A program made the position numbers and the translations under genes. This document shows, piece by piece, positions 8,748 to 38,595 of a DNA stretch of 64,000 nucleotides. Positions within the stretch are counted from its first letter, which is position 1. Each line of letters begins with the position of its first letter. Location of the stretch: assembly GCA_965204725.1 (NCBI GenBank), contig OZ242005.1, positions 4,816,079-4,880,078 on the forward strand, read 5' to 3'. The notes below the pieces were generated by a model. It had not been told where the DNA came from. It did no database searches and saw nothing but the letters and a program-made list of their open reading frames with translations. The DNA is from Candidatus Latescibacterota bacterium (lineage in GTDB: Bacteria > Latescibacterota > UBA2968 > UBA8231).

Positions 8748-10208
8748 ATGATTTACCCCCCCCCCCCCCGAAAATTCGGTCCTGAGTTTCGGCGTCGCCT
8801 GCCCCAGCTTCTGCTTGTGTTGGCCCTCATGCTGGCGGCCTTCGCCTACGGCGGCCTCGGCGTCCACTACCAGCTATTCCCCTTCCCGGTCATCGCCGAT
8901 GGCATAAAGACCTTGCGGACTCTACACGAGGTACATACCAGAAAGGACCACAACAGCTTCATGCACTTCACCGATGTGCCGCCGGACAGCGTGGCCTCCA
9001 ACCGCTTCGAGTTCGTGGCCGGCGATGCCCTCAGCGGCCCAGTGCTGTGGCAGGGCGGACGCTACCAGTTCCTCGACTATTGCCCCGACTGGGGATGCCT
9101 CGCAGTAGAGTTCACCGCCACCGGCCAAGTCGCCCATGCCTACCCGTTCCGCAACGATGAACTCGAACAGGCGGCAGCCGCTGCCCAATCCGATGAATTC
9201 CCCTACGAACTATCCCCCGCCGCCTCTTTCGTCGAGGTGTATGTGGCAGCCATGTCGCGCTACGCGAATGGCGACCTGCTGGTGATTTTTTACCAAGACG
9301 GGGCTTTCCCCCATGGTGCGGGCGTTGCTCGGATCGACCGCGATGGGCATCCGGTCTGGTTCCGGCGCGACTACAGCCACCACTGGCCACATATCGAAGA
9401 AAACGGCGTCGCGCTGGTGCCCGGCACGTTGGTTGGCAGCGAGAGTATATCCCTTAAGAGAGGGCGAGGTACTATCACGCGCAAGTGCCGCACGGGTCGG
9501 CCGTTGCTCGACGAGATTCGCATGATCGACGGGAATGGCCAGATCCTAAAGCGCATCAGCCTGCTTGACGCTTTGCGCAATTCTCCATTCATGCACCTCC
9601 TGCCCACATTCGGGAACAAGGCTTTTTGTAACCTTCACCTCAACTTCGTTCACCGGCTTCGGGATGACGCCGGCGGGACATGGGGCCTCGCGCCGGGAGA
9701 CTTCGTGGCGTCCCTACGCAACCTGAACGCATTCGCTATTCTCGATGGCGAATCCGGCCGCGTCAAACGGCTGGTTCGGGGAACCTTCCTCAGTCAACAC
9801 AGCGTCCATCACCTAACGGGATCGACCTTCCTGATGTTCGACAATTACGGCGGCGATGGGGTTCACGGCCCCTCGCGGCTGCTCATGATCGACATCGCCG
9901 ATGGCCGGGAGACGACCCTCTTTCCCAACGACCAGACGCCCGAACCCCTGCGAAACCTGTTCTCCAGCTACAAAGGCGCAATCGACATCTCACCCGATCG
10001 CAGTCGGGCGATGATCTTATTCACCGTAGAGGGCGTGGCTGTCGAGGTACGCCTCGCCGATGGCGCGGTGCTGAACGCCTTCCACTCCCTACATAATGTA
10101 TCGAACTTGGAGCAGTTCCCCGAGCAGTTCCCCGAAGAGTACCCCGAAGAACGGCAGCAAAGGGCCGCCGTATTCGAGATAAATGGACTTTACTACATCC
10201 GCAATTGA
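8748..10208 (+). CDS. Membrane-anchored beta-propeller-like protein, arylsulfotransferase (ASST)-like
   Basis: 486-aa ORF with an N-terminal TM helix (LLLVLALMLAAFAYGGLGV). Blocks CNLHLNFVHRL, QHSVHHL and MFDNYGG resemble ASST-family motifs from memory. The family call is tentative. Confidence 0.45.
   Translation: MIYPPPPRKFGPEFRRRLPQLLLVLALMLAAFAYGGLGVHYQLFPFPVIADGIKTLRTLHEVHTRKDHNSFMHFTDVPPDSVASNRFEFVAGDALSGPVLWQGGRYQFLDYCPDWGCLAVEFTATGQVAHAYPFRNDELEQAAAAAQSDEFPYELSPAASFVEVYVAAMSRYANGDLLVIFYQDGAFPHGAGVARIDRDGHPVWFRRDYSHHWPHIEENGVALVPGTLVGSESISLKRGRGTITRKCRTGRPLLDEIRMIDGNGQILKRISLLDALRNSPFMHLLPTFGNKAFCNLHLNFVHRLRDDAGGTWGLAPGDFVASLRNLNAFAILDGESGRVKRLVRGTFLSQHSVHHLTGSTFLMFDNYGGDGVHGPSRLLMIDIADGRETTLFPNDQTPEPLRNLFSSYKGAIDISPDRSRAMILFTVEGVAVEVRLADGAVLNAFHSLHNVSNLEQFPEQFPEEYPEERQQRAAVFEINGLYYIRN
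8756..8769 (+). repeat. C14 homopolymer inside codons 3-8 of the ASST-like ORF
   Basis: Counted directly: 5 C at 8756-8760 plus 9 C at 8761-8769. They encode the PPPP of MIYPPPPRKF. Confidence 0.9.
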
Positions 10209-26051: not shown

Positions 26052-26120
26052 GGTCTCCTCCAGCGCGTTACGTTGATCCGCCAAGCTACCGGAAACCTAA
26101 CAAAGAGCGGGCTATCACAC

Positions 26121-26968
26121 TAGAAGCTATCTCATAAATAGTCTGGCTGTGCTACGTTAGTGGTATTCCCTTTCGGAGGTATCTCTTATGGATCTTACAG
26201 ACGAACAGTGGTCGATAGTGTCCCCACTGCTGCCGGCGTGTCCCAAACGCCGCGATGGCCGGGGTCGTCCGTGGCGTTGTAACCGAGCGGTGCTCAATGG
26301 TATTCTGTGGATTCTCCGCACCGGGGCGCCTGGGCATGACCTGCCTGCTCGCTATCCGTCCTACCAGACCTGCCATCGTCGATTCCAACAGTGGTCGTCT
26401 GATGGCACCTTTGAACATATTCTGCGCACCCTCGCGCACGACTTGCATGAGCGCGGGGGCCTTGATGTGAGCGAATGCTTCATCGATGGCCTGTTTGTCG
26501 CGGCGAAAAAAGGGGGGACCAAGTGGGTCCGACCAAGCGGGGCAAAGGTACGAAGCTCATGGCAGTGGCAGACCGCGCTGGTCTTCCTATCGCCGTACTC
26601 ATCCAAAGTGCTTCGCCGCACGAAGTCACCCTCGTAGAAGCCACCCTGGAAAACCGATGGGTCCAGCCCCGACCGCAACGACTCATCGGGGACCGAGCCT
26701 ACGACTCGGATCGATTGGATGCGAGCCTGGCCGACCAAGGCATTGAGATGATCGCGCCGCATCGCCGCAATCGTACGCAGGCCAAAACCCAGGACGGGCG
26801 GCGGTTGCGGGGCTACAAAAGACGCTGGAAAATAGAAAGACTGTTTGCTTGGTTGCATAACTTCCGCCGCATCGTGGTTCGATACGAATACTATGCTGAA
26901 AACTACCTCGGCTTTGTACAACTCGGATGCATCCTCATACTGCTACGGTATTTATGAGATAGCTTCTA
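26121..26968 (+). mobile_element. IS5-family insertion sequence (IS427/IS1031-like), copy 1, 848 bp
   Basis: Perfect 20-bp terminal inverted repeats: TAGAAGCTATCTCATAAATA at 26121-26140, and its reverse complement at 26949-26968. Two overlapping transposase frames. TA at both junctions. An identical copy lies at 35986..36833. Confidence 0.9.
26188..26957 (+). CDS. IS5-family DDE transposase, orfA/orfB joined by a probable -1 frameshift
   Basis: orfA is 26188..26637 ([16 protein letters not shown]...RRDGRGRPW, the DUF4096-type N-terminus). orfB frame runs to 26957 ([21 protein letters not shown]...GDRAYDSD...[16 protein letters not shown], the DDE region). An A6G6 run at 26506-26517 sits in the overlap. 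Confidence 0.85.
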
Positions 26969-28203
26969 ATACCAAACACGCCGAGCACCGGCACATCGAC
27001 CGGACTGTACGCCGGCTCGGCTTGGAGGAGTTGCTGTACGTCGTCGGACGAGACCGAGGGATACGTCAGGTGCAGTCCCTTCTTGTTGGCGCACTCGTAC
27101 AAATCGCCATACTCGGCTCGGGGCACGGCGAGGAAACTGAAGACGTGACAGTCGTGTTCCAGTGCGGTCTCAATGGCCGTGCGCAGCACATCTTGCTTGC
27201 CGATTCGCCCTAATTGATCGACATAGCCGAGGATGAGCGTATCCGCTTCTGCAAGGACCGAAGCGAGCCGGGGCCGAATGCGTACCCCTATGTCGGACAA
27301 GCCCAACACGTGGCCCGCATCCTTACCAACCAGCCCCTTGCCCACTGGGTCGGCGATGCCCGTAATCTCAAACGCGAGTAGATCGTGCGCCCGGACCAAG
27401 GCGTGCATCTCCTTGTTGAACGGGTAGAGAGCCGCCTTCTGAATCCAAGAAAAACTTGAAGGATTGGCAGGAGGCTCCGGCGCGGCCACTGGGCGCGAGC
27501 GCATATTTGGGAGTAGCTCCGGCGTCCCCTGCAGCGCATTGGCCTGCAACTGCTCGCGCACCTGTTCCAACGATGCCCCCGGATGCGCTTGGCGAATCAA
27601 GGCAACCATGCCGGTAACGTGCGGCGCGGCAAAGCTGGTGCCCGACACCATCACATACCGAGGGTCGGTCCAGCAGACCCGCTGGGCATCGCCGCGGGCG
27701 ACGCACTCGATCTCGTCCCCCGGACGATAGTAGTACCCATAGCGTCCGCGGACCTTACCTCCCGCAACGCCAATAACATCTGACAACACGGCTGGGTAGC
27801 TTTCGCGCCCGTCATTGTGCTCGGCAGCGACGAGAATAACCTTGGCTTCACGGGCTTGGCGACAGACCTCGGCGAGTGCGTCCCGGAAGGTAACGTCCGT
27901 CGTGCCTAAGCTGAGGTTGACCACATCCATCCTCTGCTCAACCGCCCAGCGGATCGCCGCCAGCAGAGCCGGACCATCGGCGGTTAGGGACTCGTCAAAG
28001 AGGCGGACATCGTACAGGGTCGCTGTCGGCGCGATTTGGCGGATAATACCCGCGCAAGCCGTGCCGTGCCCCGCACTAGCAGCCGTTGGCGGAGACACCG
28101 AGTCCAAGAGTACCTCGTGAACCGCGCCGATCTTTTCGTGCGTCGGGTCAATACCCGAGTCGATGACGGCGACATGGACGGGATGATCGGGTTGATTCGT
28201 CAA
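26935..28203 (-). CDS. Subtilisin-like S8 serine peptidase, cytoplasmic, with its 3' end replaced by IS sequence
   Basis: Catalytic triad blocks are VAVIDSGID (Asp), GHGTACAG (His) and [12 protein letters not shown] (Ser). No signal peptide. Native sequence ends at about 26969; the last 11 codons ([11 protein letters not shown]) and the stop are encoded by the IS terminus. Confidence 0.85.
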
Positions 28204-28256: not shown

Positions 28257-28940
28257 CTACTCTCGGTTAAAGTAGAAGGCGAGTTCTGGTTTTTGGCGGG
28301 CGCGTATGGCAATCGTCGAATCCATGCGGATCGCCGTTGCTAAGTCCGCGCTGGCCAACGCCGTTTCGCCGCGCCAAGCGCGGATGCGGGCTCGGTAATA
28401 CCACGCGACTCCTGTTTCGTGGTCGAGTAACACCGCCCGATTAAGCGCGTTTAACCCTTCGTCTAGTCTGTCTGTTCCTATAAAAAGAAGGCTTCGCTTG
28501 ATCCACGACTCAAGGTGGTCCGGGTCGTGCTGCAACGCGGTCTCAAGTGCTGCTTCTGCGGCCGCATAGTCCTTTTCTTGGAGGTGAAGCGAACCAATAA
28601 GTCCCCAGAAATGCGCGAAATGGGCGTCCGTGGAATCGGCGGCCAAGCAGGTTTTGTAAACATGTACGGCTTTCTCTACTTGTCGTAGGTCGCGCAGAAG
28701 ATCGCCCGTTTTCTGGCATAATCCCACGTTTTTGGGATCTAAGCGAAACGCAGCCGAATAAGACTCAAGTGCTTGCTCATAAGCGCGCCGAGCCATCCGG
28801 CGTTCATTGTTCGCCATGAGTCGATCTCCATGCCGTAAGTAAGTATCCCCATCCGATAGATCATATCTCACCATGAGATATAACAGTGAAAGTATCGTCA
28901 TGGAATTGATTACAACAGTAGAGACGACCCATTTTCTCAC
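28257..28940 (-). CDS. Membrane-anchored TPR-repeat protein
   Basis: N-terminal TM helix (VVSTVVINSMTILSLLYLMV) followed by TPR-like helical repeats (AYEQALESYSAAFRLDP..., AEAALETALQHDP...). Confidence 0.7.
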   Translation of the reverse strand: MRKWVVSTVVINSMTILSLLYLMVRYDLSDGDTYLRHGDRLMANNERRMARRAYEQALESYSAAFRLDPKNVGLCQKTGDLLRDLRQVEKAVHVYKTCLAADSTDAHFAHFWGLIGSLHLQEKDYAAAEAALETALQHDPDHLESWIKRSLLFIGTDRLDEGLNALNRAVLLDHETGVAWYYRARIRAWRGETALASADLATAIRMDSTIAIRARQKPELAFYFNRE

Positions 28941-29686
28941 GGTACAGAATCCAACCTATAAACTCTAGAGGAGAAAACTAATTCTGCTACTATATTGGCA
29001 ACGCCGTGTAGCACAATACAGGCTCCAATTGAACGAGATCGTTCATAGTAAAGAACAAGCACGAGACCTAAACCCAAATGAGGTAAAAGTGCCAAAAACG
29101 TTCCTTCCGTATTGTAGTGACATAAAGCAAACAGTATTACATTGGTTATAACAGCCCATACAAAAGATAAATGCCTTTTGAGGTAGGGATACAGAATACC
29201 TCTAAATAGCCACTCCTCCACTAGAGGAATGACAATGACACCCTGTAATAATCTTATAATTGATAAATCGGGTAGGTGCATTACGGGGGGGACATAACCG
29301 GCTGATCGAGATAGATTCGCTGGAACCGTAATCAACAAGACTAAGAAAACAGCCAGCCAGACTTCTCTACCCATACCATATAGAGACAGTTCTATCTGCT
29401 TGGGCACAGTTCCTACAATGAGATGAAAACAGGCAAGCATCAAAATCATCGCGGCAGCATGGGATCCAAAGAGGTAAATCGTGACGATTTTCATATCCCG
29501 CAACAGCAAAGACTCCTCTACCCAGTTATCGACACAAGCGTTTCTGAGTGCAATAAAAAAGAATAAAATGGCGAACTGTAGGATGACCAAGATAAGGTTC
29601 CATGGACACTCCCATTCTTGCCCTCGCATGGTATCCCAAGTGTTGATCACGATCCTATATCCCGTCTTAATGTACACACGATGCAC
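28937..29686 (-). CDS. CPBP (CAAX protease/bacteriocin-processing, Abi) family intramembrane protease-like protein
   Basis: Contains EEWLFRG (the EExxxR motif), FALCH and HGVAN blocks within a multi-TM protein. The true start may be an internal Met. Confidence 0.75.
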   Translation of the reverse strand: MHRVYIKTGYRIVINTWDTMRGQEWECPWNLILVILQFAILFFFIALRNACVDNWVEESLLLRDMKIVTIYLFGSHAAAMILMLACFHLIVGTVPKQIELSLYGMGREVWLAVFLVLLITVPANLSRSAGYVPPVMHLPDLSIIRLLQGVIVIPLVEEWLFRGILYPYLKRHLSFVWAVITNVILFALCHYNTEGTFLALLPHLGLGLVLVLYYERSRSIGACIVLHGVANIVAELVFSSRVYRLDSVP

Positions 29687-29808: not shown

Positions 29809-30510
29809 TTACCCTGCGCTGATCGAGTATTTTACCCAAGTGGCCCCCGCTGCAAAGAGTGTCTGTAGAGACCAGAAGATTGCAACGGCGAAGGCCGCTT
29901 GGAGGCGTTTGAGTGCGCATATGCGACTCAAGCCCAAGACGAGAAGCCCATAGTACCAGAAGCTGAAGGGGTTGATATTCATAAGTACAGTTTTGGTTAT
30001 CGGATGCAGTTCCCCATGCCAGAGGAGGTCTAAGCCAATAGAAATAGCTAGCTCATCTACCGTTGCTTGGCCTGTCTGAACTTTCATTATGCTTATACCC
30101 GCCATCAGCACCCCAGCAATGAAAGTCGTCATGTTGGAATAGGCGACTAGAGAGAAGATCATCTTGAATTCCGCCAAGCCCTCTAAGACTTGGACGATGA
30201 GCCATATCGCGAACGAGGAAAAGAACCATAGAAGCAGTATGCTGGGAAGGGTGGCGATGGTCGCCACGTAGTGGACAGTACGATTGACCTCCCTGACCTG
30301 TTTCAAGTCCGCCGATGGTATGGAGACTGACATCTGTTCTATAACAGCCTCTTGCAGCAGGGGGAAGGTGAGCCAAGTTATCAGAGTGGATCCCATACCG
30401 ATAGCGAGGAAGGGGGCTAACCAGTTAGGGTGCTCGAGGATCTGCCGAAAAGCATGTGAAGGCGACCAAATTATCCAGTATAAATTGCGAAAGGTAAGTG
30501 CGGTATCCAT
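29809..30510 (-). CDS. Yip1-domain-like polytopic membrane protein
   Basis: 233 aa. The N-terminus MDTALTFRNLYWIIWSPSHAFRQILEHPNWLAPFL followed by five hydrophobic helices is a layout typical of bacterial Yip1/DUF1282 proteins. The family call is by resemblance. Confidence 0.55.
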   Translation of the reverse strand: MDTALTFRNLYWIIWSPSHAFRQILEHPNWLAPFLAIGMGSTLITWLTFPLLQEAVIEQMSVSIPSADLKQVREVNRTVHYVATIATLPSILLLWFFSSFAIWLIVQVLEGLAEFKMIFSLVAYSNMTTFIAGVLMAGISIMKVQTGQATVDELAISIGLDLLWHGELHPITKTVLMNINPFSFWYYGLLVLGLSRICALKRLQAAFAVAIFWSLQTLFAAGATWVKYSISAG

Positions 30511-30529: not shown

Positions 30530-31081
30530 TTAGAGCAGGTGGCTACTTGGGTTTAGGGACCTATAACCCACTTCCCGACGTTGCAGTATGCCCTGTTCAT
30601 TTAAAAAAAGCAGCGTCGGGACGCGAACTATCCCTAGACGTTCGCGCAACTGAGTTTGGCAACCGAATAATACCAGAAATGAGCCGGTGATGTGCTGCCC
30701 GGCACCGCTAGGCAGTAAGGGGTGTTCTCTGATTACAGCAACGATCTCGACATTCATGATCGACCTGCGGCTTTGCCACTGTTTCAACTCGTCTAATTTA
30801 GTATGGCAAAAGCTGCATTCGAGATCGAGAACGGCGACAATCAGTTTTTTTTCTCGAAAGTCTTCGAGGTGGACGGCATTGCCTTGTCCGTCTTTGAGAT
30901 CAATTGAGGGCAAAGGTTGACCGATGCGGGCACTGTGTTTCGTTTTGCTGGTCGTTCCCATCCATAGGAACCCGACGGTTGTCGCTAAGGCGAGTGAAGA
31001 TAGTACCACGAGTGCCCGTATTCGGCGATTTACGCGCCTTCCACTAGCCATTGTCCTGCCGCTTCTGTAGGATCGAATCAA
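30530..31081 (-). CDS. TlpA-like thioredoxin-fold thiol:disulfide oxidoreductase, membrane-anchored
   Basis: Signal anchor (ALVVLSSLALATTVGF), a CxxC motif in LDLECSFCHTKL, and a cis-Pro region VRVPTLLFL. Confidence 0.75.
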   Translation of the reverse strand: MIRSYRSGRTMASGRRVNRRIRALVVLSSLALATTVGFLWMGTTSKTKHSARIGQPLPSIDLKDGQGNAVHLEDFREKKLIVAVLDLECSFCHTKLDELKQWQSRRSIMNVEIVAVIREHPLLPSGAGQHITGSFLVLFGCQTQLRERLGIVRVPTLLFLNEQGILQRREVGYRSLNPSSHLL

Positions 31082-31502
31082 AGAGGATTTTGGCCAGAGC
31101 TACTCGTTCCCTCTCTACGAGCTTTGCCTGCACCACAGTACCTTCCAAGTTGTACGCGAGGCGGTCGAAATCGACTTCCCCTTTGAGGGTGATCCAGACC
31201 CGGGTCGCGTCAGGTTCGTAGTCGATACGCCCGTTGATCTGTGCTATAATGGCACGGAGAACCTCTTGTTCGTCATAAGTAATATCAGCATAGTGGCATT
31301 CGCGTAGCAGACTCAGGCGCATATCTGGGATGTCCGCCTCCAATATCCAATCTGGTCCTCTGCGGTGGAGCAAACCCTCCAATTCTAGACCGACGTTCAC
31401 ACGTATAGTAGCTAGCCCGATCACCATAAACATCAGGATAAGCGTCGTGCCGAATAACAGGACGCCAACTTTCCATTCCAGCTTACGGGGGATTTTCATC
31501 AC
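31044..31502 (-). CDS. Membrane-anchored hypothetical protein
   Basis: 152-aa ORF with one N-terminal TM helix (VGVLLFGTTLILMFMVIGLATI). It is tightly packed between ABC and thioredoxin genes. Confidence 0.55.
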   Translation of the reverse strand: MMKIPRKLEWKVGVLLFGTTLILMFMVIGLATIRVNVGLELEGLLHRRGPDWILEADIPDMRLSLLRECHYADITYDEQEVLRAIIAQINGRIDYEPDATRVWITLKGEVDFDRLAYNLEGTVVQAKLVERERVALAKILFDSILQKRQDNG

Positions 31503-31510
31503 GAGTTTAC

Positions 31511-33271
31511 CTAGATATAAGGCTGATGAAAATTTGCAAAAGGGCCATTTTGATTGATAAGCTCGTTATAGGTACCTGCTTCGACAATTTTCCCTCCAGA
31601 GAGGACGTGGATGATGTCGGCAAGAACCAAGGACGTAGATTGATGAGCTATCAAGAGCGTTGTCCGGTCCCTAGTTGCCCTTTTGAGTATGCGAAGGACT
31701 GTCTGTTCCGTGTTGCTGTCGAGCGAGGACGTTGCTTCATCGAGAATGAGAATCTGCGGATTGCGTATAATTGCCCTAGCCAAAGCTAGGCACTGCTTTT
31801 GACCGCCCGAAAGCTGGACTCCCCCAGATCCGATGCGTGTATCGATACCTGCGGGAAAGTGCTGTATGAACTCCATACAATCCATCTCTTCTAGGGTCTG
31901 TTCTATCGCATGGTAAGTAGCATTAGAAGTCCCGTAAGCAACATTCTCTCGAATGCTGCCTGTAAAGAAAGACGCATCTTGTCCTACCCATCCGACAACA
32001 CCACGCAGATGATCCAGATTGTAGGAGTTTGCGTTGACTCCGTCTATGCGAAGCTCACCGGAGGTTGGCTCGTAGAACCGGACCAACAGGTGAGCCAAGG
32101 TGGTCTTCCCCGATCCTATCTTCCCGACCACGGCAGTGACTTGGCTGGGCTCCAACGTCAAGTCGATTCCGTTTAGCACCGGTAGCCCCTTGTCATAGGA
32201 AAAGTAGATGTTTTCGTACACCACTTTGCCTTTTCTAATCCGGTATTTGTTCTGAGGAACCTTTTTTTCGAGAGGCGTTTCCATCATTTCGACGACTCGC
32301 TTCAAAATACCTATGCCTTGGCGAAAACTGACGTATAGTACCGACAACTGGTTGACGGGACCGTAAACGTACGCCACCAAAGTGTGGAAGGCCATAAACT
32401 GCCCGAGGGTAAGCAGACCTTCCATGATCGAGTACGCGCCGTACCAGAGGACAGCCAGTCCACTTATGCTGTAGAGAAATATCTGCAGCAATTGAGCACT
32501 GACCATTGTCGCGTCACGTTGTAGGCGGCTCTCGGCTTCTCGACGCAAATAACCCGAAAGCCTCAGAACCTCCTTCCTCGTTCCGCCAAAGACCTTGGCT
32601 GCCAAGGCCGAATCCAAAGACTCTATGCGCATAGAGTTGGTCTGACTCTTCCTCTCCTGTGTCGCGGCACTGTATTTTTGGATGCGTCGCCCGAAGCGGA
32701 TATTCGTCCAGACAAAGGCTGGCAGAACTAGGAGAACGACTGAGGTCAGTGTTGAATTGAGGGAGAACATGATCACCAAGGCAATGGCGATGAGCGACAA
32801 ACTGCTCAAACCCTCAATGTACGTTCCTGCCATCAGCGTGTTTAACTGACGTACATCGTCACTGATGCGGGTGGAAAAGTAGCCAGGGCCGCGATTGAGG
32901 AGAAAGGAAACAGGAGCCTCAAGTACGGAGCGAAACAGTTTCAATTCCATATTGAAAAAAACGCGCCGCGAAAACACCAGTAGAAGGTAGCGATGTAGAA
33001 AACCTAGACCCAATCCCAGCAAGGTGGTAAGGATCAGGGTCGCGCATATGACGTTCAGTGCATGGATTTGGCCATTGGCTATAACCCGATCAATGATATA
33101 GATGGTCAATACTGGCATCGGTGACGCGAGGATGGTAGTGAACAGCATGCATACACCCGCTTCCACAGCACGCAGCCAGTAAGGAGAGAAGAAAGGGAGC
33201 AACCGTTGAAGTGATGCTAGCATCTCCAGCGATCTTTCCATTCTATTTCGTATATCTTCTTTTATAGTCAT
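31511..33271 (-). CDS. ABC exporter, fused permease + ATPase (type I exporter), no visible N-terminal C39 peptidase domain
   Basis: Six-TM N-terminal half. Walker A is GKIGSGKTT, signature is LSGGQKQ, and Walker B is ILILDEATSSLD. Confidence 0.85.
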   Translation of the reverse strand: MTIKEDIRNRMERSLEMLASLQRLLPFFSPYWLRAVEAGVCMLFTTILASPMPVLTIYIIDRVIANGQIHALNVICATLILTTLLGLGLGFLHRYLLLVFSRRVFFNMELKLFRSVLEAPVSFLLNRGPGYFSTRISDDVRQLNTLMAGTYIEGLSSLSLIAIALVIMFSLNSTLTSVVLLVLPAFVWTNIRFGRRIQKYSAATQERKSQTNSMRIESLDSALAAKVFGGTRKEVLRLSGYLRREAESRLQRDATMVSAQLLQIFLYSISGLAVLWYGAYSIMEGLLTLGQFMAFHTLVAYVYGPVNQLSVLYVSFRQGIGILKRVVEMMETPLEKKVPQNKYRIRKGKVVYENIYFSYDKGLPVLNGIDLTLEPSQVTAVVGKIGSGKTTLAHLLVRFYEPTSGELRIDGVNANSYNLDHLRGVVGWVGQDASFFTGSIRENVAYGTSNATYHAIEQTLEEMDCMEFIQHFPAGIDTRIGSGGVQLSGGQKQCLALARAIIRNPQILILDEATSSLDSNTEQTVLRILKRATRDRTTLLIAHQSTSLVLADIIHVLSGGKIVEAGTYNELINQNGPFANFHQPYI

Positions 33272-33330: not shown

Positions 33331-33366
33331 TTAGCACGGCGCGACTATTTATGAGATAACTTCTAG
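33331..33366. mobile_element. Solo relic of the IS left terminus
   Basis: 33343-33366 (GACTATTTATGAGATAACTTCTAG) matches the outer end of IS copy 2 (36811-36834) at 23 of 24 positions. Weaker identity extends about 12 nt further inward. Confidence 0.7.
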
Positions 33367-34160
33367 CAATCGCCGGTCGCCTTCGTTAAACGTAGGAACA
33401 GGTCTTCCAATGTAGAGTCATTGGCTTTCTGTTGCAGTTCCCTCACCTTCACCTTGTCGTTCAATGATTCGGTTGAGGCGGAGAAGACTATCTTGCCTTT
33501 ATGACAGATCGCTACCTTTTCACACAATTCTTCCACTATGGGTAGAATATGGGACGTCAAGAAGACCGTCTTGCCTTTTCCAGCGGCATCCTTGAGGAGG
33601 TCCTTTATCATCTTGACCGACCGGGGATCGATTCCGGTAAAGGGTTCGTCGAGGAAGAGAAGTTCTGGGTCGTGCAGCAAAACCGCCGCCAGTGCCAGTT
33701 TCTTCTTCATCCCCGCGGAGTAGGTGCTGATCTGCGCGTCGCTAGCACTGCCTAGATCGAAAAGCTCTAGGAGATCGGCGGTACGTTGACGCAGTGTCGG
33801 CTTGTCGAGGCCGAACATCGCTCCGGAGAAATACAGATGTTCCTGGCCTGTGAGCGATTCGTAAAGGGCAAGGTCCTCGGCCATGATACCGATGCGCTTC
33901 TTGATCTCTGTCGCGTTGACCGTCATCTCTTCCCCCAGAATGTGAACCGTCCCCGCGCTAGGTGCCAAGAGCCCCGACAGCAAGTTGGTCAGCGTGGACT
34001 TTCCTGCCCCGTTTGGTCCGATGAGTCCGAGTATCACCCCTGGAATAACGTCGATGTCGACATTGTCTATCGCCAAGAGTCTTCCGTATTTCTTTGTTAG
34101 TCCGACCGCACGAATTGCGTATTCCATGAGACGACCTTCGTTTGCTTTATATTCTTCCAA
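33363..34160 (-). CDS. ABC transporter ATP-binding protein (ABC-2 type)
   Basis: Walker A is GPNGAGKST, signature is YSAGMKKK, and Walker B is LLFLDEPFTGID. Its stop codon lies inside the IS relic. Confidence 0.85.
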   Translation of the reverse strand: MEEYKANEGRLMEYAIRAVGLTKKYGRLLAIDNVDIDVIPGVILGLIGPNGAGKSTLTNLLSGLLAPSAGTVHILGEEMTVNATEIKKRIGIMAEDLALYESLTGQEHLYFSGAMFGLDKPTLRQRTADLLELFDLGSASDAQISTYSAGMKKKLALAAVLLHDPELLFLDEPFTGIDPRSVKMIKDLLKDAAGKGKTVFLTSHILPIVEELCEKVAICHKGKIVFSASTESLNDKVKVRELQQKANDSTLEDLFLRLTKATGDC

Positions 34161-34170
34161 AGCCCATTCT

Positions 34171-35856
34171 TTATGAGCAGAAACGGATGAGAAACAAGTC
34201 CCTTTTATCCAGCCACACCTCGGCTGCCTTCTGCAAAGTGAGAGTATAGAAAATCGCTGTGGTAATACACATAGCTGCTAGCAGCGACAGTAGGATTATC
34301 GGCTGCCTGACGACCTCGTGAAAGTAATACAGGCCCGCGCCAATTATTATAGCGGAAAGGCTCAGGCCTACTATGGCTAGAAAATCGGCCTGTAGAGAAA
34401 GGTAACGCCCGACGATGTTACCCGGTGAGAGCTTGAGCGGATAGAGTACAGAGGCTATGTTACCAATTAAGGTATGCAGCAGAGACAGGTACAGCATGAT
34501 CAAGATGATCGCCAGCCTTTCGGACCAGTCGGTATGTCCCCAACTAAGGTAGAAGGTCCACGCCATACTCGGCCCTGCAATCGCCCCTTGGACAAGCAGA
34601 TATGCTAGATTTTTACCGACTAGGATGGTTTTTGGCTGGATTGGAGCTAAAAAATTAAAGACGACTCCCGTAGATTCGAGACCGAAAATATTGTAGAAAA
34701 TCGCATAGGGTATTACACATATTGGCAATAACAACAGCAGTGAATAGGGGCCGACGACGACCCCTTTTGCGACGTGTATCAGAGGGATGGCAATGCCCCA
34801 AAGCAGGGTGGATAACAGAATGAGACGCAGCCGATTTTCGCGTAAGATATAAATCAATTCTTTGGCCGCGACGTTGGCCACTTGGCAGTTGAACAGCCCC
34901 TCGAACGCGCTGGTCAGTTTCTCGAACGTGTTGACATTGTATAAAATCGCCTCTCCCCCTTGAAGAGGCCGCTCGTACAATCTCTTCTTGAGCAGAAAAT
35001 AGGCAATTATTCCACAGCTAACGGCATAGACGATAAGGCCAACCGCTGGCCAGCCTGCGAGCCTGCCAGCGTGAAAACCAAGTAGCAGTTCGCTGACTAG
35101 GCCGGGAGGGGTCAAAACCCAATACGCGGCAGAGTGGTTGATCGGGGCGATGAGAGTATCGATATCGACATAGTGTCCAAGCATCGAATAGACGGAACCG
35201 AGCAGGATAGCAGAGAAGAAGATCAGCTTCCCACGATGCCTACTAAGCGACCGGATCAAGTCAGCCAGCAGCAGGCTAAGCATGTATACTAGCATGTGGT
35301 TGGCTAGCACGAATAGGGCGATAATGAAAAGTAAACCGACTGCAGGAACGAGACCTTGCTTCATTCCATAGAGCGTACCTAGCCACACAGCAAGAAGATA
35401 AAAGATCAAAAGCCAAGGGTTGAAGAGCCCCAACGTTACATCGGCTGCGTAGAGTCTCCATAGCCTGTAAGGGAACCGGACTAGTCGGAACAGTCGAGAC
35501 ATATCGGGCGTGGATATACCTCGGAACAAGCCCAGCAGTACCCATGCTATGGACAGATAGGCAAAGGTGGCTAGTACCAAACGGGGCAGAATATATGCAC
35601 CCTGGGTAGTTAGAAGTAGCTGAGTCGAATAGTAGAACTGAGTTATAAAAAAAATACCCCAGCTAATACCTAAAACGAGTACGGTGCCCATTAATAAACA
35701 CCATGTCCTCTCCCTCTTTGCCCAGTTGAGCGAAGCGTGGTATTTCAACCAGAGTATATAGACGACCATCATCATATTGGCGCAAATTCCTAAGTTGTGG
35801 CAGAAATCCCATTGCAGCCGTTCACTACGACGGTACGATATACCTAATAGCTGCAC
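34171..35856 (-). CDS. Polytopic membrane protein, probable permease partner of the adjacent ABC ATPase
   Basis: 561-aa ORF, almost entirely hydrophobic helices, 11 nt upstream of the ATPase gene. GTG start on the track, so the true start is uncertain. Confidence 0.65.
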   Translation of the reverse strand: MQLLGISYRRSERLQWDFCHNLGICANMMMVVYILWLKYHASLNWAKRERTWCLLMGTVLVLGISWGIFFITQFYYSTQLLLTTQGAYILPRLVLATFAYLSIAWVLLGLFRGISTPDMSRLFRLVRFPYRLWRLYAADVTLGLFNPWLLIFYLLAVWLGTLYGMKQGLVPAVGLLFIIALFVLANHMLVYMLSLLLADLIRSLSRHRGKLIFFSAILLGSVYSMLGHYVDIDTLIAPINHSAAYWVLTPPGLVSELLLGFHAGRLAGWPAVGLIVYAVSCGIIAYFLLKKRLYERPLQGGEAILYNVNTFEKLTSAFEGLFNCQVANVAAKELIYILRENRLRLILLSTLLWGIAIPLIHVAKGVVVGPYSLLLLLPICVIPYAIFYNIFGLESTGVVFNFLAPIQPKTILVGKNLAYLLVQGAIAGPSMAWTFYLSWGHTDWSERLAIILIMLYLSLLHTLIGNIASVLYPLKLSPGNIVGRYLSLQADFLAIVGLSLSAIIIGAGLYYFHEVVRQPIILLSLLAAMCITTAIFYTLTLQKAAEVWLDKRDLFLIRFCS

Positions 35857-35985
35857 CGTCAGCAGCGAAGCTACCCCAGAGTCCTGACCCTAGGGTAGCT
35901 TCTAAGTTGCTGCGTCGCTGCTGATACTGCTATAGTTATGATTCTGCGAGTAAGCCTAATTCGCAAAATCAAAACACCACGGTAT

Positions 35986-36833
35986 TAGAAGCTATCTCAT
36001 AAATACCGTAGCAGTATGAGGATGCATCCGAGTTGTACAAAGCCGAGGTAGTTTTCAGCATAGTATTCGTATCGAACCACGATGCGGCGGAAGTTATGCA
36101 ACCAAGCAAACAGTCTTTCTATTTTCCAGCGTCTTTTGTAGCCCCGCAACCGCCGCCCGTCCTGGGTTTTGGCCTGCGTACGATTGCGGCGATGCGGCGC
36201 GATCATCTCAATGCCTTGGTCGGCCAGGCTCGCATCCAATCGATCCGAGTCGTAGGCTCGGTCCCCGATGAGTCGTTGCGGTCGGGGCTGGACCCATCGG
36301 TTTTCCAGGGTGGCTTCTACGAGGGTGACTTCGTGCGGCGAAGCACTTTGGATGAGTACGGCGATAGGAAGACCAGCGCGGTCTGCCACTGCCATGAGCT
36401 TCGTACCTTTGCCCCGCTTGGTCGGACCCACTTGGTCCCCCCTTTTTTCGCCGCGACAAACAGGCCATCGATGAAGCATTCGCTCACATCAAGGCCCCCG
36501 CGCTCATGCAAGTCGTGCGCGAGGGTGCGCAGAATATGTTCAAAGGTGCCATCAGACGACCACTGTTGGAATCGACGATGGCAGGTCTGGTAGGACGGAT
36601 AGCGAGCAGGCAGGTCATGCCCAGGCGCCCCGGTGCGGAGAATCCACAGAATACCATTGAGCACCGCTCGGTTACAACGCCACGGACGACCCCGGCCATC
36701 GCGGCGTTTGGGACACGCCGGCAGCAGTGGGGACACTATCGACCACTGTTCGTCTGTAAGATCCATAAGAGATACCTCCGAAAGGGAATACCACTAACGT
36801 AGCACAGCCAGACTATTTATGAGATAGCTTCTA
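35986..36833 (-). mobile_element. IS5-family insertion sequence, copy 2, inverted relative to copy 1
   Basis: Same 20-bp termini as copy 1. All six-frame ORF translations are identical to copy 1. TA at both junctions. Confidence 0.9.
35997..36766 (-). CDS. IS5-family DDE transposase (orfA/orfB, probable -1 frameshift), copy 2
   Basis: Protein sequences identical to 26188..26957. The C6T6 run at 36437-36448 is the complement of the A6G6 slippery run. Confidence 0.85.
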
Positions 36834-36843
36834 GCAAGACTGG

Positions 36844-37038
36844 CTAGAAGCAAGAAAAAGCGACGCTATGGACTGCTACGGAAACAGCGAAAGCACCGAC
36901 TATGCCGCCCGTGGGGACGAACGTGGCTACGCTAAGGCCGAGACCTAGAACGGACAATCCGCATTCGACCCCGTATCCGCACACAGACGCGTTTCCGCCA
37001 TACGGACGCAACGTGCGTTTCCTCAAAGTACGGGTCAT
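36844..37038 (-). CDS. 64-aa Gly/Ala/Val-rich, 3-Cys hydrophobic peptide (candidate bacteriocin-like precursor or membrane toxin)
   Basis: AGGAGG lies 8 nt upstream of ATG 37038 (AAAGGAGGTGATAGATATG). Product: MTRTLRKRTLRPYGGNASVCGYGVECGLSVLGLGLSVATFVPTGGIVGAFAVSVAVHSVAFSCF. The track ORF starts 3 codons earlier at a GTG inside the RBS. Confidence 0.6.
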   Translation of the reverse strand: MTRTLRKRTLRPYGGNASVCGYGVECGLSVLGLGLSVATFVPTGGIVGAFAVSVAVHSVAFSCF

Positions 37039-37140
37039 ATCTATCACCTCCTTTCTATATTGGATTTGTGAATCCGTTCGGCGACCCGCGGGTCTGCAAC
37101 TATGTAACTAGTATTAGACACGCGTCTACTGAACGGTTCA

Positions 37141-38595
37141 TTAAGTCAACCTGTGGGAGATGCCCATGCTTTGAAAAATAGCCTGGGCCGTAGCCTTGTA
37201 TTCCGCAGCTGCATTAGTCCTCCCTTCTTGAGTGGCGATCTGAGACAAAGCTTCTAGTGCCTTGCCTTGGTCAATTCGACTGCCAACTTGCTCGCTCTTA
37301 TGCAACACCTCTTGGCAACATGAAGCAGCCTTCTCGAAATGTCCCTGACTAGTATATACTGAGCTTAAGTAATGGCCTATCTGCATTTCTAAGGTAGGTA
37401 GGCCCATCTTATAGCATTGGTCTACGAACCGTCGGAGAGAGAGAATTGTCGCCTCCACATCACTTCCGCCGGACAGCATTGAGAGCAGGATTTCGCACTC
37501 TAGAGCCAAGGGACGCAACCCTGATTGCTGAGCTAGAGTCAGAGCCTTGGCCAAGAGCTCCTGAGCTTGGGCGGTAATTCCCAACCGCAACAGGCACCTG
37601 CCCCATGTCAAACGGCTTCTGACTTGACCGCGCCTGTAGCGGAGGTGTTCCTCTAAGTCAATCGCCTCTGCGAAATAGCGGCCGCCGTTTTTCATGTCAC
37701 CGCTGCTTAGATGCATTAGTCCGCGTAAGCCCAACACTCTCCCTTTGGCGTGAGCGTCGTCCAAGCTCTCGTATAGCTCTTGCGCTGCGTCAATGTGGTG
37801 GCTAGCGTCATTCCTCCCTTGCAAAAGCCATAGGTAGGCCAATTGCAGGTGCAGCCGGCCTACGACATTAATTCTCCGCCTGCTTATTTGGACCAGTGCT
37901 TCACGGAGCACCGTTTCGCCATCGTGGAACTTGCCCATGGCCGTGAGCAATCCGCCTTTGACCAACGCTCTCGACGCGGCTGCCTCCACTGTATCCTGTC
38001 GTTTCGTGATGCTGTAAATTCCTTCGTCGCAAAGCTGGAGGCCTTGGTAGTATTGTCCGCGGTGCATGCAGAGAAGAGCTAATCGAGTCTTGACGAAATT
38101 CACGTGGTGGCCCTCGTCTTCCGTTTTCAATACGCCGGTCGCCTCTTCGAGACACCTGTTAGCCCCGGTCCAATCCCCCATATCTTGCAGGACTTGGGCG
38201 CGATTGATTTGTATCAGTCCTTGGAACTGCTCCCATCCGCGCTCTGCGGCGAGGTTTGCGGAACGAGAGAAGACAGCTTCGGCACTGTATAGATCGGATG
38301 TGAGGACACAGGCTACTCCTTGTGCCGCTTGGGCTATCAGGCTTGCGGTGGCCGTGTCGGAAGAAGCGTACAATTCCGCCGCTTCCTCGTATTTCTTAGC
38401 TGCGAAAGCCTCTTCGCCCCGCCGAAAACGATCGATTGCTAGTTCGTGCTTTGGCTCGGGTAGGGACTGTAATTCTTCCTGTAAGTCTTTTTCATTTGGC
38501 TTGAAAAACTGCTGACTATCGTCGGGTAGTTGAACTTCTGCGAAACCCTCTACCTCTTTCGCTTTCAGCTTGCGTATCCAGTGGTTCCTGATCAT
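37141..38595 (-). CDS. Soluble TPR-repeat protein (484 aa), no other recognisable domain
   Basis: Repeated about 40-residue helical hairpins with TPR-like A/L/Y/G spacing along the whole length. No TM helix, no HTH that I can see. Confidence 0.7.
   Translation of the reverse strand: MIRNHWIRKLKAKEVEGFAEVQLPDDSQQFFKPNEKDLQEELQSLPEPKHELAIDRFRRGEEAFAAKKYEEAAELYASSDTATASLIAQAAQGVACVLTSDLYSAEAVFSRSANLAAERGWEQFQGLIQINRAQVLQDMGDWTGANRCLEEATGVLKTEDEGHHVNFVKTRLALLCMHRGQYYQGLQLCDEGIYSITKRQDTVEAAASRALVKGGLLTAMGKFHDGETVLREALVQISRRRINVVGRLHLQLAYLWLLQGRNDASHHIDAAQELYESLDDAHAKGRVLGLRGLMHLSSGDMKNGGRYFAEAIDLEEHLRYRRGQVRSRLTWGRCLLRLGITAQAQELLAKALTLAQQSGLRPLALECEILLSMLSGGSDVEATILSLRRFVDQCYKMGLPTLEMQIGHYLSSVYTSQGHFEKAASCCQEVLHKSEQVGSRIDQGKALEALSQIATQEGRTNAAAEYKATAQAIFQSMGISHRLT

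What the first reader, a model, noticed from the sequence alone, without database searches (positions are those of the whole stretch)
36844..37038. 64-aa Gly/Ala/Val-rich, three-cysteine peptide with a Gly-Gly after a basic 15-residue N-terminus
The sequence is MTRTLRKRTLRPYGG / NASVCGYGVECGLSVLGLGLSVATFVPTGGIVGAFAVSVAVHSVAFSCF. The near-consensus RBS (AGGAGG, 8-nt spacing) argues that it is translated. The basic N-terminus ending in GG and the 49-residue glycine-zipper-like hydrophobic body resemble double-glycine-leader class II bacteriocins. However, the leader lacks the usual acidic/hydrophobic consensus, and the neighbouring exporter lacks a C39 peptidase domain. IS copy 2 lies 10 nt downstream of its stop and separates it from the export and immunity genes.
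Basis: partly seen in the sequence, partly recalled or inferred. Interest (0 to 1): 0.6.

Follow-up and report, generated by a model that had tools for sequence, protein, structure and literature searches.

The report
Precursor gene of an exported peptide
This 64-codon gene is real and most likely encodes the precursor (a 25-residue leader plus a cysteine-capped, two-helix hydrophobic core) of an exported, probably antibacterial peptide made by a rare gene cluster of uncultured Latescibacterota. The proposed Gly-Gly cut site is not conserved, and insertion sequences have broken the cluster in this genome.

Summary
The ORF (36844-37038, minus strand) is as described: same 64-aa sequence, AGGAGG 8 nt before the ATG, three Cys, and an IS 10-12 nt after the stop. 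It is a real gene. Homologues of 64-82 aa sit in the same position (large TPR gene, peptide, unclassified permease, ABC ATPase, C39-less ABC exporter, small membrane protein, thioredoxin-like protein, Yip1/YknW-like protein, usually an S8 protease-TIGR04066/DUF1611 fusion plus carrier protein) in at least 10 independent loci. No Pfam or NCBIfam model matches the peptide.

The alignment shows a conserved N-terminal leader (M1, L5, K7, Y13, V19, Y22, E25), then an invariant Cys26 and a variable Gly/Ala-rich core that usually ends in a second Cys. Gly14-Gly15 is not conserved, so the double-glycine/C39 reading fails. The broader reading, a leader-bearing precursor in a production/export/immunity cluster, holds.

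A congener carries the same leader on an unrelated 136-aa cargo beside the orthologous maturation genes. One close pair of homologues differs by 12 nonsynonymous and 1 synonymous codon changes.

In this genome one IS separates the peptide gene from its operon. A second IS cuts the protease gene, whose remainder lies 1.09 Mb away. Six metagenome contigs carry the intact locus.

The parts
36844..37038 (-). Precursor peptide gene, 64 codons plus TAG stop
   Evidence: Identical product on 6 metagenome contigs. Syntenic homologues.
36964..37038 (-). Leader region, codons 1-25 (conserved M1, L5, K7, Y13, V19, Y22, E25). It contains the non-conserved G14-G15 and the non-conserved C20.
   Evidence: Alignments A4 and A5. 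AF2 models residues 1-24 as coil at low confidence.
36847..36963 (-). Core region, codons 26-64. It starts with the invariant Cys26, has two hydrophobic Gly/Ala/Val-rich helices around a PTGG turn, and carries Cys63 near the C-terminus.
   Evidence: A5 has C26 invariant in 10 of 10 sequences. Hydropathy and zero net charge. AF2 helices at 25-38 and 46-63, pLDDT 60.
37047..37052 (-). Shine-Dalgarno sequence AGGAGG, 8 nt before the ATG
   Evidence: A GAAAGGAG-like motif is conserved before all homologues and absent before most neighbouring genes.
35986..36833 (-). IS5-family insertion sequence (copy 2, two-frame transposase), a strain-specific simple insertion with TA duplication between the peptide gene and the permease
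   Evidence: Absent from six otherwise 99-100% identical metagenome contigs. 14 copies or fragments in the genome.
37141..38595 (-). 484-aa all-TPR protein, always immediately upstream of the peptide gene in the hydrophobic-core family
34171..35856 (-). Permease of 534-561 aa with no Pfam family, always immediately downstream of the peptide gene (probable start at 35775)
   Evidence: Retained with the ATPase in the decayed locus L035.
33363..34160 (-). DrrA-type (ABC-2) ATPase, partner of the permease
31511..33271 (-). ABC half-transporter exporter (membrane domain plus ATPase) without a C39 domain
31044..31502 (-). 152-aa protein with an N-terminal membrane helix. HlyD-type adaptors occupy this position in L036 and upstream of the exporter in G005.
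30530..31081 (-). Membrane-anchored thioredoxin-fold protein (AhpC/TSA, ResA-like) with a CSFC motif
29809..30510 (-). Yip1-domain membrane protein, YknW-like
28937..29686 (-). CPBP/Rce1-like intramembrane protease. This family is often linked to bacteriocin self-immunity.
   Evidence: The orthologue in G005 is 83% identical.
28257..28940 (-). Small TPR protein with an N-terminal membrane helix
26974..28203 (-). 5' part (about 412 of 627 codons) of the S8 subtilase-TIGR04066/DUF1611 fusion gene, cut by IS copy 1. The rest of the gene lies at G000:C1:3754284 onward.
26120..26973 (+). IS5-family copy 1, one endpoint of a roughly 1.09-Mb inversion
35860..35905 (-). Strong stem-loop (14-16 bp) in the native peptide-to-permease spacer. 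It may be a transcript-processing or attenuation hairpin.
   Evidence: the 231-nt spacer has a z-score of -4.96. No U-tract follows the stem.

Best explanation
The ORF encodes the precursor of a ribosomally made, exported peptide from a previously undescribed family found in a few Latescibacterota.

Shown:
- The gene is conserved and syntenic.
- It has an unusually strong, conserved ribosome-binding site.
- Residues 1-25 form a conserved leader.
- Residue 26 is an invariant Cys.
- The remaining 38 residues are a variable, uncharged, Gly/Ala/Val-rich segment that usually ends in a second Cys.

Inferred mechanism:
1. The leader docks the precursor on the cluster's maturation module: a cytoplasmic S8 subtilase fused to a TIGR04066/DUF1611 domain, a carrier protein and a BtrH_N-like protein.
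2. The subtilase removes the leader at or just before Cys26.
3. The C39-less ABC exporter, with the small membrane adaptor-like protein and the Yip1 protein, moves the core out.
4. The membrane-anchored CxxC thioredoxin-fold protein closes a Cys26-Cys63 disulfide, which staples a two-helix hairpin.
5. The product acts on membranes of competitors.
6. The unclassified permease/ABC-2 ATPase pair and the CPBP protease protect the producer.

In this particular genome the system is probably disabled. One IS separates the precursor gene from the rest of the operon. A second IS, followed by an inversion, has split the protease-fusion gene and carried the carrier-protein and BtrH-like genes 1.09 Mb away.
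For: - Conservation and synteny.
- Leader/core architecture and the invariant Cys: alignments A4 and A5.
- Modular leader: congener G005 keeps orthologous CPBP, TPR, S8-TIGR04066, carrier-protein and BtrH_N genes (80-86% identity). Its front half is instead HlyD, an ABC exporter and a 136-aa protein with the same leader and Cys but an unrelated cargo.
- Protease fusion: the S8 part best matches the leader peptidase QhpE (6.8e-42), the C-terminal part matches TIGR04066 'peptide maturation system protein' (4.5e-32), there is no signal peptide, and the catalytic D/H/S motifs are present.
- Literature: TIGR04066, an ACP-related protein, a subtilase and an ABC transporter are a recognised bacteriocin-type cassette in Firmicutes (PMC10731318, PMC4573289).
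- Core evolution: 12 nonsynonymous against 1 synonymous codon differences between L027 and L029, compared with 89:76 in the adjacent permease and ATPase (Fisher p = 0.007).
- Orphan immunity pattern: L035 keeps only a 3' relic of the peptide gene plus the permease and ATPase.
- Accessory island: GC 45-53% against 60-64% in the flanks. The permease is found in none of the 30 congeners searched.
- Breakage in this genome.
Against:
- No cleavage site, modification or disulfide has been demonstrated.
- The AF2 model has low confidence (pLDDT 60).
- The selection test rests on one sequence pair. A second pair (G079 against G069) shows purifying selection, with dN/dS of 0.26.
- The G069/G079 sub-family lacks the S8-TIGR04066 gene in its cluster, so that module is not obligatory.
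- The peptide gene is always glued to the permease gene, with a 4-nt overlap in L036. That would also fit a transporter subunit.
- ResA/TlpA-like thioredoxins are usually reductants, not oxidants.
Confidence: 0.65

Rival explanations
1. One reading: a class II bacteriocin with a 15-residue double-glycine leader, cleaved after G15 by a C39-type activity during export.
For: GG is present at residues 14-15, and the C-terminal part is a hydrophobic glycine-zipper-like body. One MAFFT run (A3) placed the leader/core boundary near residue 16.
Against: GG is not conserved in any alignment. Once the bridging homologues P0019 and G124 are included, the V-x-[AG]-Y-x-x-[ED] motif of the leader extends to E25. 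The exporter has no C39 domain and the conserved cluster has no C39 gene. The leader lacks the usual hydrophobic and acidic double-glycine consensus.
Confidence: 0.04
2. A membrane-resident two-helix hairpin that stays in the producer's membrane as a subunit or regulator of the adjacent permease/ABC-2 ATPase transporter. It is not a secreted product.
For: The peptide gene is always directly upstream of the permease gene, with a 4-nt overlap in L036. The composition resembles a two-TM hairpin, with only chance-level similarity to ATP synthase subunit c. The N-terminus of the window's copy is basic, which fits the positive-inside rule.
Against: The N-terminal charge varies from about -3 to +6 across homologues, and the G047-type leaders are acidic. 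The same leader is attached to a largely soluble 136-aa cargo in G005, which has no such permease. One close pair shows an excess of amino-acid-changing substitutions in the core. In L035 the permease and ATPase are kept while the peptide gene is reduced to a relic. The two conserved Cys would both face the cytoplasm in an N-in hairpin, yet the cluster carries an extracytoplasmic thioredoxin.
Confidence: 0.13
3. A secreted signalling (quorum-sensing-type) peptide sensed by the adjacent TPR protein, with the response-regulator/AraC gene found upstream in several loci as the output.
For: A roughly 500-aa TPR protein lies immediately upstream in all loci of the hydrophobic-core family, and a receiver-AraC regulator lies upstream of it in L022, L028, L029 and L036.
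Against: The core is 38-55 residues long and strongly hydrophobic, unlike known TPR-sensed pheromones. The cluster carries two self-protection-type modules (ABC-2 pair, CPBP). The core diverges rapidly. TPR proteins are also common accessory or regulatory parts of RiPP clusters (weak HaaT and AfsR TPR hits). Autoinduction by the product would be compatible with the main explanation and is not exclusive of it.
Confidence: 0.1
4. A chance ORF or a mis-annotated non-coding spacer.
For: It is small, has low-complexity composition, matches no protein family and has no significant match in the congeners searched.
Against: Profile matches at syntenic positions have E-values down to 6e-36. The start, the SD and specific residues are conserved. 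Gene callers predicted it independently on all contigs.
Confidence: 0.01

Closest known systems
CcpM / TIGR04065-TIGR04069 'Cys-rich peptide maturation' cassettes of Firmicutes (e.g. the SacP23 cluster of Paenibacillus polymyxa, PMC10731318; the Roseburia cluster, PMC4573289)
   Same: A small Cys-bearing precursor, a subtilase, a TIGR04066-type protein, a small carrier protein and an ABC exporter are encoded together.
   Different: No radical SAM maturase (TIGR04068) appears among the Pfam-annotated genes within about 10 kb in L010, L026-L031. The precursor does not match TIGR04065. The carrier protein scores as an ordinary PP-binding ACP and does not hit TIGR04069. The subtilase and TIGR04066 parts are fused. 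The TIGR04066 score (111 bits) is below the family cut-off (200). Extra thioredoxin, Yip1, ABC-2 and TPR genes are present. The core is a long hydrophobic hairpin rather than a short Cys-rich peptide.
Class I lantibiotic export/processing logic (NisT exporter without a peptidase domain plus the subtilisin-type leader peptidase NisP; LanFEG ABC immunity) - from established knowledge
   Same: A leader-bearing precursor, an ABC exporter lacking C39, a separate S8 leader peptidase and an ABC-2-type self-protection transporter. A structured hairpin follows the structural gene.
   Different: No LanB/LanC/LanM enzymes. The core has no Ser/Thr-Cys pattern. The S8 protease has no signal peptide and is fused to a P-loop domain.
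Double-glycine-leader class II bacteriocins
   Same: An unmodified-looking, Gly-rich amphipathic or hydrophobic core of 40-50 residues with GxxxG-type motifs, and a dedicated ABC exporter with immunity-type genes.
   Different: There is no conserved GG, no consensus leader and no C39 domain.
Bacillus subtilis sporulation killing factor operon skfABCEFGH and the YknWXYZ protection system - from established knowledge
   Same: A hydrophobic Cys-containing peptide encoded with a CPBP-type membrane protease, an ABC-2 ATPase/permease pair and a thioredoxin-like protein (skf). A Yip1-family membrane protein works with an ABC system in protection against an endogenous peptide toxin (YknW; NCBIfam YknW_fam hit at 2.6e-17, below cut-off).
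   Different: No SkfB-type radical SAM enzyme, no sequence similarity between the peptides, different phylum, and presumably a diderm envelope.

Membership tests
Double-glycine-leader (class II) bacteriocin precursors | Gly-Gly (or GA/GS) at -2/-1 of the cleavage site, conserved among homologues | tested here: not met
   A2, A4 and A5: positions 14-15 are GG only in the window's peptide. Homologues have GH, GF, DA, NE, TG or DT.
Double-glycine-leader (class II) bacteriocin precursors | Leader consensus with hydrophobic residues at -4, -7, -12 and -15 and acidic residues | tested here: not met
   Read directly from the sequence: P, T, T and M occupy -4, -7, -12 and -15 relative to G15, and there is no acidic residue in 1-15.
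Double-glycine-leader (class II) bacteriocin precursors | Cognate ABC transporter with an N-terminal C39 peptidase domain | tested here: not met
   Pfam finds ABC_membrane at 38-306 and ABC_tran at 366-515 and no Peptidase_C39. The same holds for the homologous loci.
CcpM / TIGR04065-04069 peptide maturation cassette | TIGR04066-family maturation protein in the cluster | tested here: inconclusive
   Residues 256-618 of the intact fusion protein match TIGR04066 at E = 4.5e-32, but 111 bits is below the 200-bit cut-off. Pfam DUF1611 is above its cut-off.
CcpM / TIGR04065-04069 peptide maturation cassette | Subtilase-family protease in the cluster | tested here: met
   Peptidase_S8 at 2.6e-28, QhpE-like at 6.8e-42.
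CcpM / TIGR04065-04069 peptide maturation cassette | ACP-related protein TIGR04069 | tested here: inconclusive
   An 86-aa PP-binding protein follows the fusion gene and overlaps it by 16 nt in L030. It hits general ACP models and does not hit TIGR04069 at E <= 0.1.
CcpM / TIGR04065-04069 peptide maturation cassette | Radical SAM/SPASM maturase TIGR04068 | tested here: not met
   No Radical_SAM family appears among the called genes within about 10 kb in L010, L026-L031. No radical SAM hit appeared in the Pfam scans of window, L021, L022 and L047 ORFs.
CcpM / TIGR04065-04069 peptide maturation cassette | Precursor of the TIGR04065 Cys-rich family | tested here: not met
   No NCBIfam hit for the window's peptide, and only chance-level hits to unrelated families for five homologues, at E <= 10.
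RiPP-type / leader-dependent exported peptide precursor (generic) | Conserved N-terminal leader with a variable core among homologues | tested here: met
   A4 and A5. The leader is shared with an unrelated 136-aa cargo in G005.
RiPP-type / leader-dependent exported peptide precursor (generic) | Leader is removed and the core is exported or modified | not testable with these tools
   This needs mass spectrometry of the product.
YknWXYZ-type protection system | Yip1-family YknW together with a membrane-fusion protein and an FtsX-type ABC permease | tested here: inconclusive
   A Yip1 domain protein is present (YknW_fam at 2.6e-17, 63 bits against a 110-bit cut-off). The partner permease has no FtsX or any other Pfam domain. 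The 152-aa protein is not recognisably HlyD.

The most novel reading that the evidence does not exclude
The invariant Cys directly after the leader is the point of the system. The protease half of the S8-DUF1611 fusion exposes Cys26 as the new N-terminus. The DUF1611 (DgcN-like) half, together with the dedicated carrier protein and the BtrH_N-like transferase, then caps or acylates that Cys with a carrier-protein-borne group. The product would be an N-capped (lipo)peptide hairpin, and this would be a ribosomal/thiotemplated hybrid class of natural product that has not been described chemically. The Latescibacterota leader family would then be a portable address tag for this kit.
Probability: 0.15. 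Interest if true: 0.8.

Novelty: new variant of a known kind. Interest (0 to 1): 0.5.

Why it matters
Latescibacterota are uncultured, and almost nothing is known about their peptide natural products. The finding supplies a clear substrate family, with a defined leader motif and an invariant Cys, for the S8-DUF1611 fusion plus carrier protein maturation kit. That kit has not, as far as I found, been studied biochemically, and it occurs in 86 of the 168 genomes of this phylum that were searched. With a known substrate, the chemistry of the kit can be tested directly by co-expression and mass spectrometry.

The locus also offers a natural series for studying how such loci evolve:
- the intact cluster in metagenomes;
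- the IS-broken cluster in this genome;
- a relic that keeps only the immunity-type genes (L035);
- a cargo/exporter cassette swap in a congener (G005).

For genome annotation, it shows that this 64-codon ORF should be called as a gene.

Tried and rejected
- **Double-glycine leader.** Rejected because GG is not conserved and there is no C39 domain.
- **Exhaustive phmmer against 1.84 billion representatives.** The only non-self hit, P0002, is a 1186-aa tandem-repeat protein. I judged it a low-complexity artefact.
- **Single-sequence search of 60 relatives.** Nothing significant. Homologues appeared only through synteny and then through profile searches.
- **Genome-contig scan with the permease profile.** It returned only the three loci already found.
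- **PDB sequence searches with the permease and peptide profiles.** No meaningful hits. The ATP synthase subunit c matches are at chance level (E about 3-5).
- **Composite-transposon reading of the two inverted IS copies.** Rejected. The 9 kb between them is contiguous with the peptide and TPR side in the IS-free contigs. The far side of copy 1 is not the native neighbour, which lies 1.09 Mb away.
- **Recurrent '1 TGA' inside a sub-family of S8-DUF1611 homologues.** Checked as possible recoding. In the three genomes examined it is the ordinary stop codon, read through by the six-frame aligner.
- **Alignment A3.** It placed a 13-residue gap in the leader. It was superseded once the bridging homologues P0019 and G124 were added.
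- **The paper on DD(I/V)LF orphan RiPPs (PMC12703449).** Its main text does not discuss the subtilase or carrier-protein genes, so I did not use it.
- **IS junction in the S8 gene.** The junction bases differ from the IS-free allele at two positions (TTA|IS and IS|AAG against native CTAG). I did not resolve why.

Full report
**1. The observation**

AGGAGG lies at 37052-37047, followed by an 8-nt spacer and the ATG. The alternative GTG start three codons upstream lies inside the SD/spacer, and homologues align from the ATG. Cysteines are at 20, 26 and 63, and GG at 14-15.

An 854-nt repeat (IS5 family, transposase in two frames) starts 10-12 nt after the stop codon. The neighbouring 586-aa ABC exporter has no C39 domain.

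**2. It is a real, conserved gene**

The single sequence finds nothing significant in 60 relatives, in 5.8 billion clustered proteins or in 1.84 billion representatives. The exceptions are itself and a repeat-protein artefact.

Synteny gave the homologues. The unclassified permease next to the peptide gene has relatives in only three other species genomes, all labelled Candidatus Latescibacterota MAGs. Each of them has a 74-78-aa ORF in the same slot between a roughly 500-aa TPR gene and the permease.

A profile of these four sequences recovered further 74-82-aa proteins (plus one 54-aa fragment) from metagenomes. Their loci show the same gene order. A further sub-family (P0019, G124) bridges the window's peptide to the rest, and G160 adds another member. 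Eight of the 168 genomes searched in the phylum match the profile.

All copies carry a GAAAGGAG-type Shine-Dalgarno sequence 8-10 nt before the ATG, whereas most neighbouring genes have none. No Pfam or NCBIfam model matches any member.

**3. Anatomy of the family**

With the bridging sequences included, the alignment is stable (A4, A5).
- The N-terminal 25 residues form a conserved block: M1, L5, K7, Y13, V19, Y22 and usually A21 and E25. The consensus is MxKLxKPxxRxYxxxxxxVxAYxxE.
- Cys26 follows and is invariant in 10 of 10 sequences.
- The remainder is variable, uncharged and Gly/Ala/Val-rich. It has two hydrophobic stretches around a Gly/Pro turn and usually ends in a second Cys (Cys63 here).
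- Gly14-Gly15 aligns with GH, GF, DA, NE, TG or DT, so it is not a family feature. The basic charge of the window's leader is not a family feature either, since the G047-type leaders are acidic. Cys20 is also not conserved.

AF2 on the 11-sequence alignment gives coil for residues 1-24 and helices at 25-38 and 46-63. The mean pLDDT is only 60, so this is weak support for a helical hairpin.

**4. The cluster**

Six metagenome contigs that are 97-100% identical to the window over the aligned stretches carry the locus without the IS. They give the native order:
1. TPR(484)
2. peptide
3. permease
4. DrrA-type ATPase
5. ABC exporter
6. 152-aa membrane protein
7. membrane-anchored thioredoxin-fold CxxC protein
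8. Yip1/YknW-like protein
9. CPBP protease
10. small TPR protein
11. S8 subtilase-DUF1611 fusion (627 aa)
12. PP-binding carrier protein
13. 201-aa protein
14. 332-aa BtrH_N-like protein

The fusion protein has no signal peptide and has the D/H/S motifs. Its S8 half best matches the cytoplasmic leader peptidase QhpE (6.8e-42). Its C-terminal half matches TIGR04066 'peptide maturation system protein' (4.5e-32, below the curated cut-off).

TIGR04066, an ACP-related protein, a subtilase and an ABC exporter form a cassette noted in Firmicute bacteriocin-type clusters, where they accompany a radical SAM enzyme (PMC10731318, PMC4573289). No radical SAM gene is seen here.

The fusion plus carrier protein is present in three of the four sub-families. 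It is absent from the G069/G079 clusters, which keep the TPR, permease, ATPase, exporter, small membrane protein, thioredoxin and Yip1 genes. In the phylum as a whole the fusion is very common: 86 of 168 genomes, with up to 7 copies per genome.

**5. Tests that separate 'precursor' from 'membrane subunit'**

(a) The congener G005 has orthologues of the CPBP, small TPR, S8-TIGR04066, carrier protein and BtrH_N genes at 80-86% identity. Its front half, however, is HlyD, an ABC exporter and a 136-aa protein. That protein's first ~40 residues carry the same leader motif and the Cys, and its remainder is an unrelated, partly acidic cargo. A shared address tag on different cargoes beside the same maturation genes is what a leader peptide predicts.

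(b) Between two closely related loci (L027 and L029) the peptide differs at 12 nonsynonymous and 1 synonymous codons (core 9:0). The adjacent permease and ATPase differ at 89:76 (Fisher p = 0.007). This suggests diversifying change in the core. It is one pair only, and the G079/G069 pair shows dN/dS of 0.26.

(c) In L035, whose permease is 83% identical to the window's, only the last roughly 32 codons of the peptide gene survive, without a start or a leader. The permease and ATPase are intact and are joined to a fragment of the BtrH_N-like gene. Keeping the transporter after losing the peptide fits a self-protection role better than an obligate subunit relationship.

(d) The two conserved Cys flank the hairpin and would lie on the same side of a membrane. 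The cluster encodes an extracytoplasmic CxxC protein.

**6. Most likely mechanism**

Shown: the gene is conserved and syntenic, has a leader/core architecture and an invariant Cys, and co-occurs with an S8 leader-peptidase-like fusion, a carrier protein, a C39-less exporter, a thioredoxin and ABC-2/CPBP genes.

Inferred:
- The leader is recognised by the maturation module and removed at or just before Cys26.
- The core may be modified at that Cys.
- The ABC exporter, with the small membrane protein and Yip1, exports the core.
- A Cys26-Cys63 disulfide is formed outside the cytoplasm.
- The stapled hydrophobic hairpin acts on target membranes.
- The permease/ATPase pair and the CPBP protein protect the producer.

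A very stable stem-loop in the native peptide-to-permease spacer (z = -4.96, no U-tract) resembles the hairpins that follow structural genes in lantibiotic operons. The low GC of the island and the permease's absence from the 30 congeners searched mark it as accessory.

**7. State of the system in this genome**

IS copy 2 is a simple TA-duplicating insertion between the peptide gene and the hairpin/permease.

IS copy 1 cuts the protease-fusion gene after about codon 412 of 627. The rest of that gene, together with the carrier protein, 201-aa and 332-aa genes, is 100% identical to the metagenome allele but lies at G000:C1:3754284-3756831. There it abuts another, oppositely oriented IS copy. This fits a roughly 1.09-Mb inversion by recombination between IS copies.

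The genome holds 14 copies or fragments of this IS. All six metagenome contigs lack both insertions, so the breakage is recent and strain-specific. If the assembly is correct, this strain is probably a non-producer that still carries an intact precursor gene.

**8. Comparison with known systems and novelty**

The peptide is not a double-glycine class II bacteriocin, because three defining features were tested and not met.

It works most like a leader-dependent RiPP or lantibiotic-style system, with a separate S8 leader peptidase, a C39-less exporter and ABC-2 immunity. Its maturation genes are a variant of the CcpM/TIGR04066 cassette without the radical SAM enzyme. It also shares accessory genes with the B. 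subtilis skf and YknWXYZ systems (CPBP, thioredoxin, ABC-2, Yip1).

The peptide family itself, meaning the leader motif plus the invariant Cys plus the hydrophobic hairpin, matches no curated model I could test. I therefore rate it a new variant of a known kind, of moderate interest. Its main value is as a defined substrate family for an unstudied maturation kit.

**9. Limits**

No chemistry has been done. The structure model has low confidence. The selection evidence comes from a single pair. The antimicrobial role is inferred from gene content only.

Noticed in passing
window 26120-26973 and G000:C1:3753435-3756831 (L033/L038): The S8-DUF1611 gene is split by an IS. Its 3' third, with the carrier-protein, 201-aa and BtrH_N-like genes, lies 1.09 Mb away next to an oppositely oriented IS copy. 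This implies a megabase inversion, or an assembly join, across IS copies. The junction bases (TTA|IS and IS|AAG) differ from the native CTAG at two positions, and I did not explain this.
   Followed up: partly
G000 whole genome: The genome holds 14 copies or fragments of the same IS5-family element. Eight are essentially identical, so the element has been recently active. All six related metagenome contigs lack the two insertions seen in the window.
   Followed up: partly
L047 (G005:C1:2842000-2860000), ORF 9540-9950 (-): A congener has the orthologous CPBP, TPR, S8-DUF1611, ACP and BtrH_N half of the cluster. A different front half replaces the window's: HlyD, an ABC exporter, a 136-aa protein with the same leader and Cys but an unrelated acidic cargo, a second CPBP and an HTH gene. 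This is a cassette swap.
   Followed up: partly
L035 9675-12518: A decayed version of the cluster in a related species. It has a 36-codon relic of the peptide gene with no start codon, an intact permease and ATPase, and then a fragment of the BtrH_N-like gene. The pattern is that of an orphan immunity remnant.
   Followed up: yes
window 35860-35905 (-) = L010 8290-8325: A 14-16-bp perfect stem-loop (GAAGCUACCC...GGGUAGCUUC) lies in a strongly structured spacer between the peptide and permease genes (z = -4.96), with no U-tract. Its stem sequence resembles the IS terminus (GAAGCTATC).
   Followed up: partly
window 37082-37093: A perfect 12-nt palindrome, GACCCGCGGGTC, lies in the 102-nt gap between the TPR gene and the peptide gene. 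It is nested within a longer CCGTTC...GAACGG inverted repeat. It could be an operator or a hairpin.
   Followed up: no
window 33332-33366: A 35-nt match (89%) to the IS terminus lies between the exporter and ATPase genes. It is also present in the IS-free metagenome allele, whose alignment is contiguous across it, so it predates the current insertions.
   Followed up: partly
phylum-wide: S8-DUF1611 fusion genes occur in 86 of 168 genomes of the phylum, with up to 7 copies per genome. G000 has a second, intact paralogue at C1:3975799-3977670 (58% identity). The recurrent '1 TGA' in a sub-family of hits turned out, in the three genomes examined, to be the normal stop codon read through by the aligner.
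   Followed up: yes
L037 (GCA_003660745.1, QMUU01000022.1): A contig carrying this bacterial-type cluster (peptide P0019/P0020) is deposited in a MAG labelled Thaumarchaeota. The closest peptide is in the Latescibacterota genome G124, so the contig is probably mis-binned.
   Followed up: no
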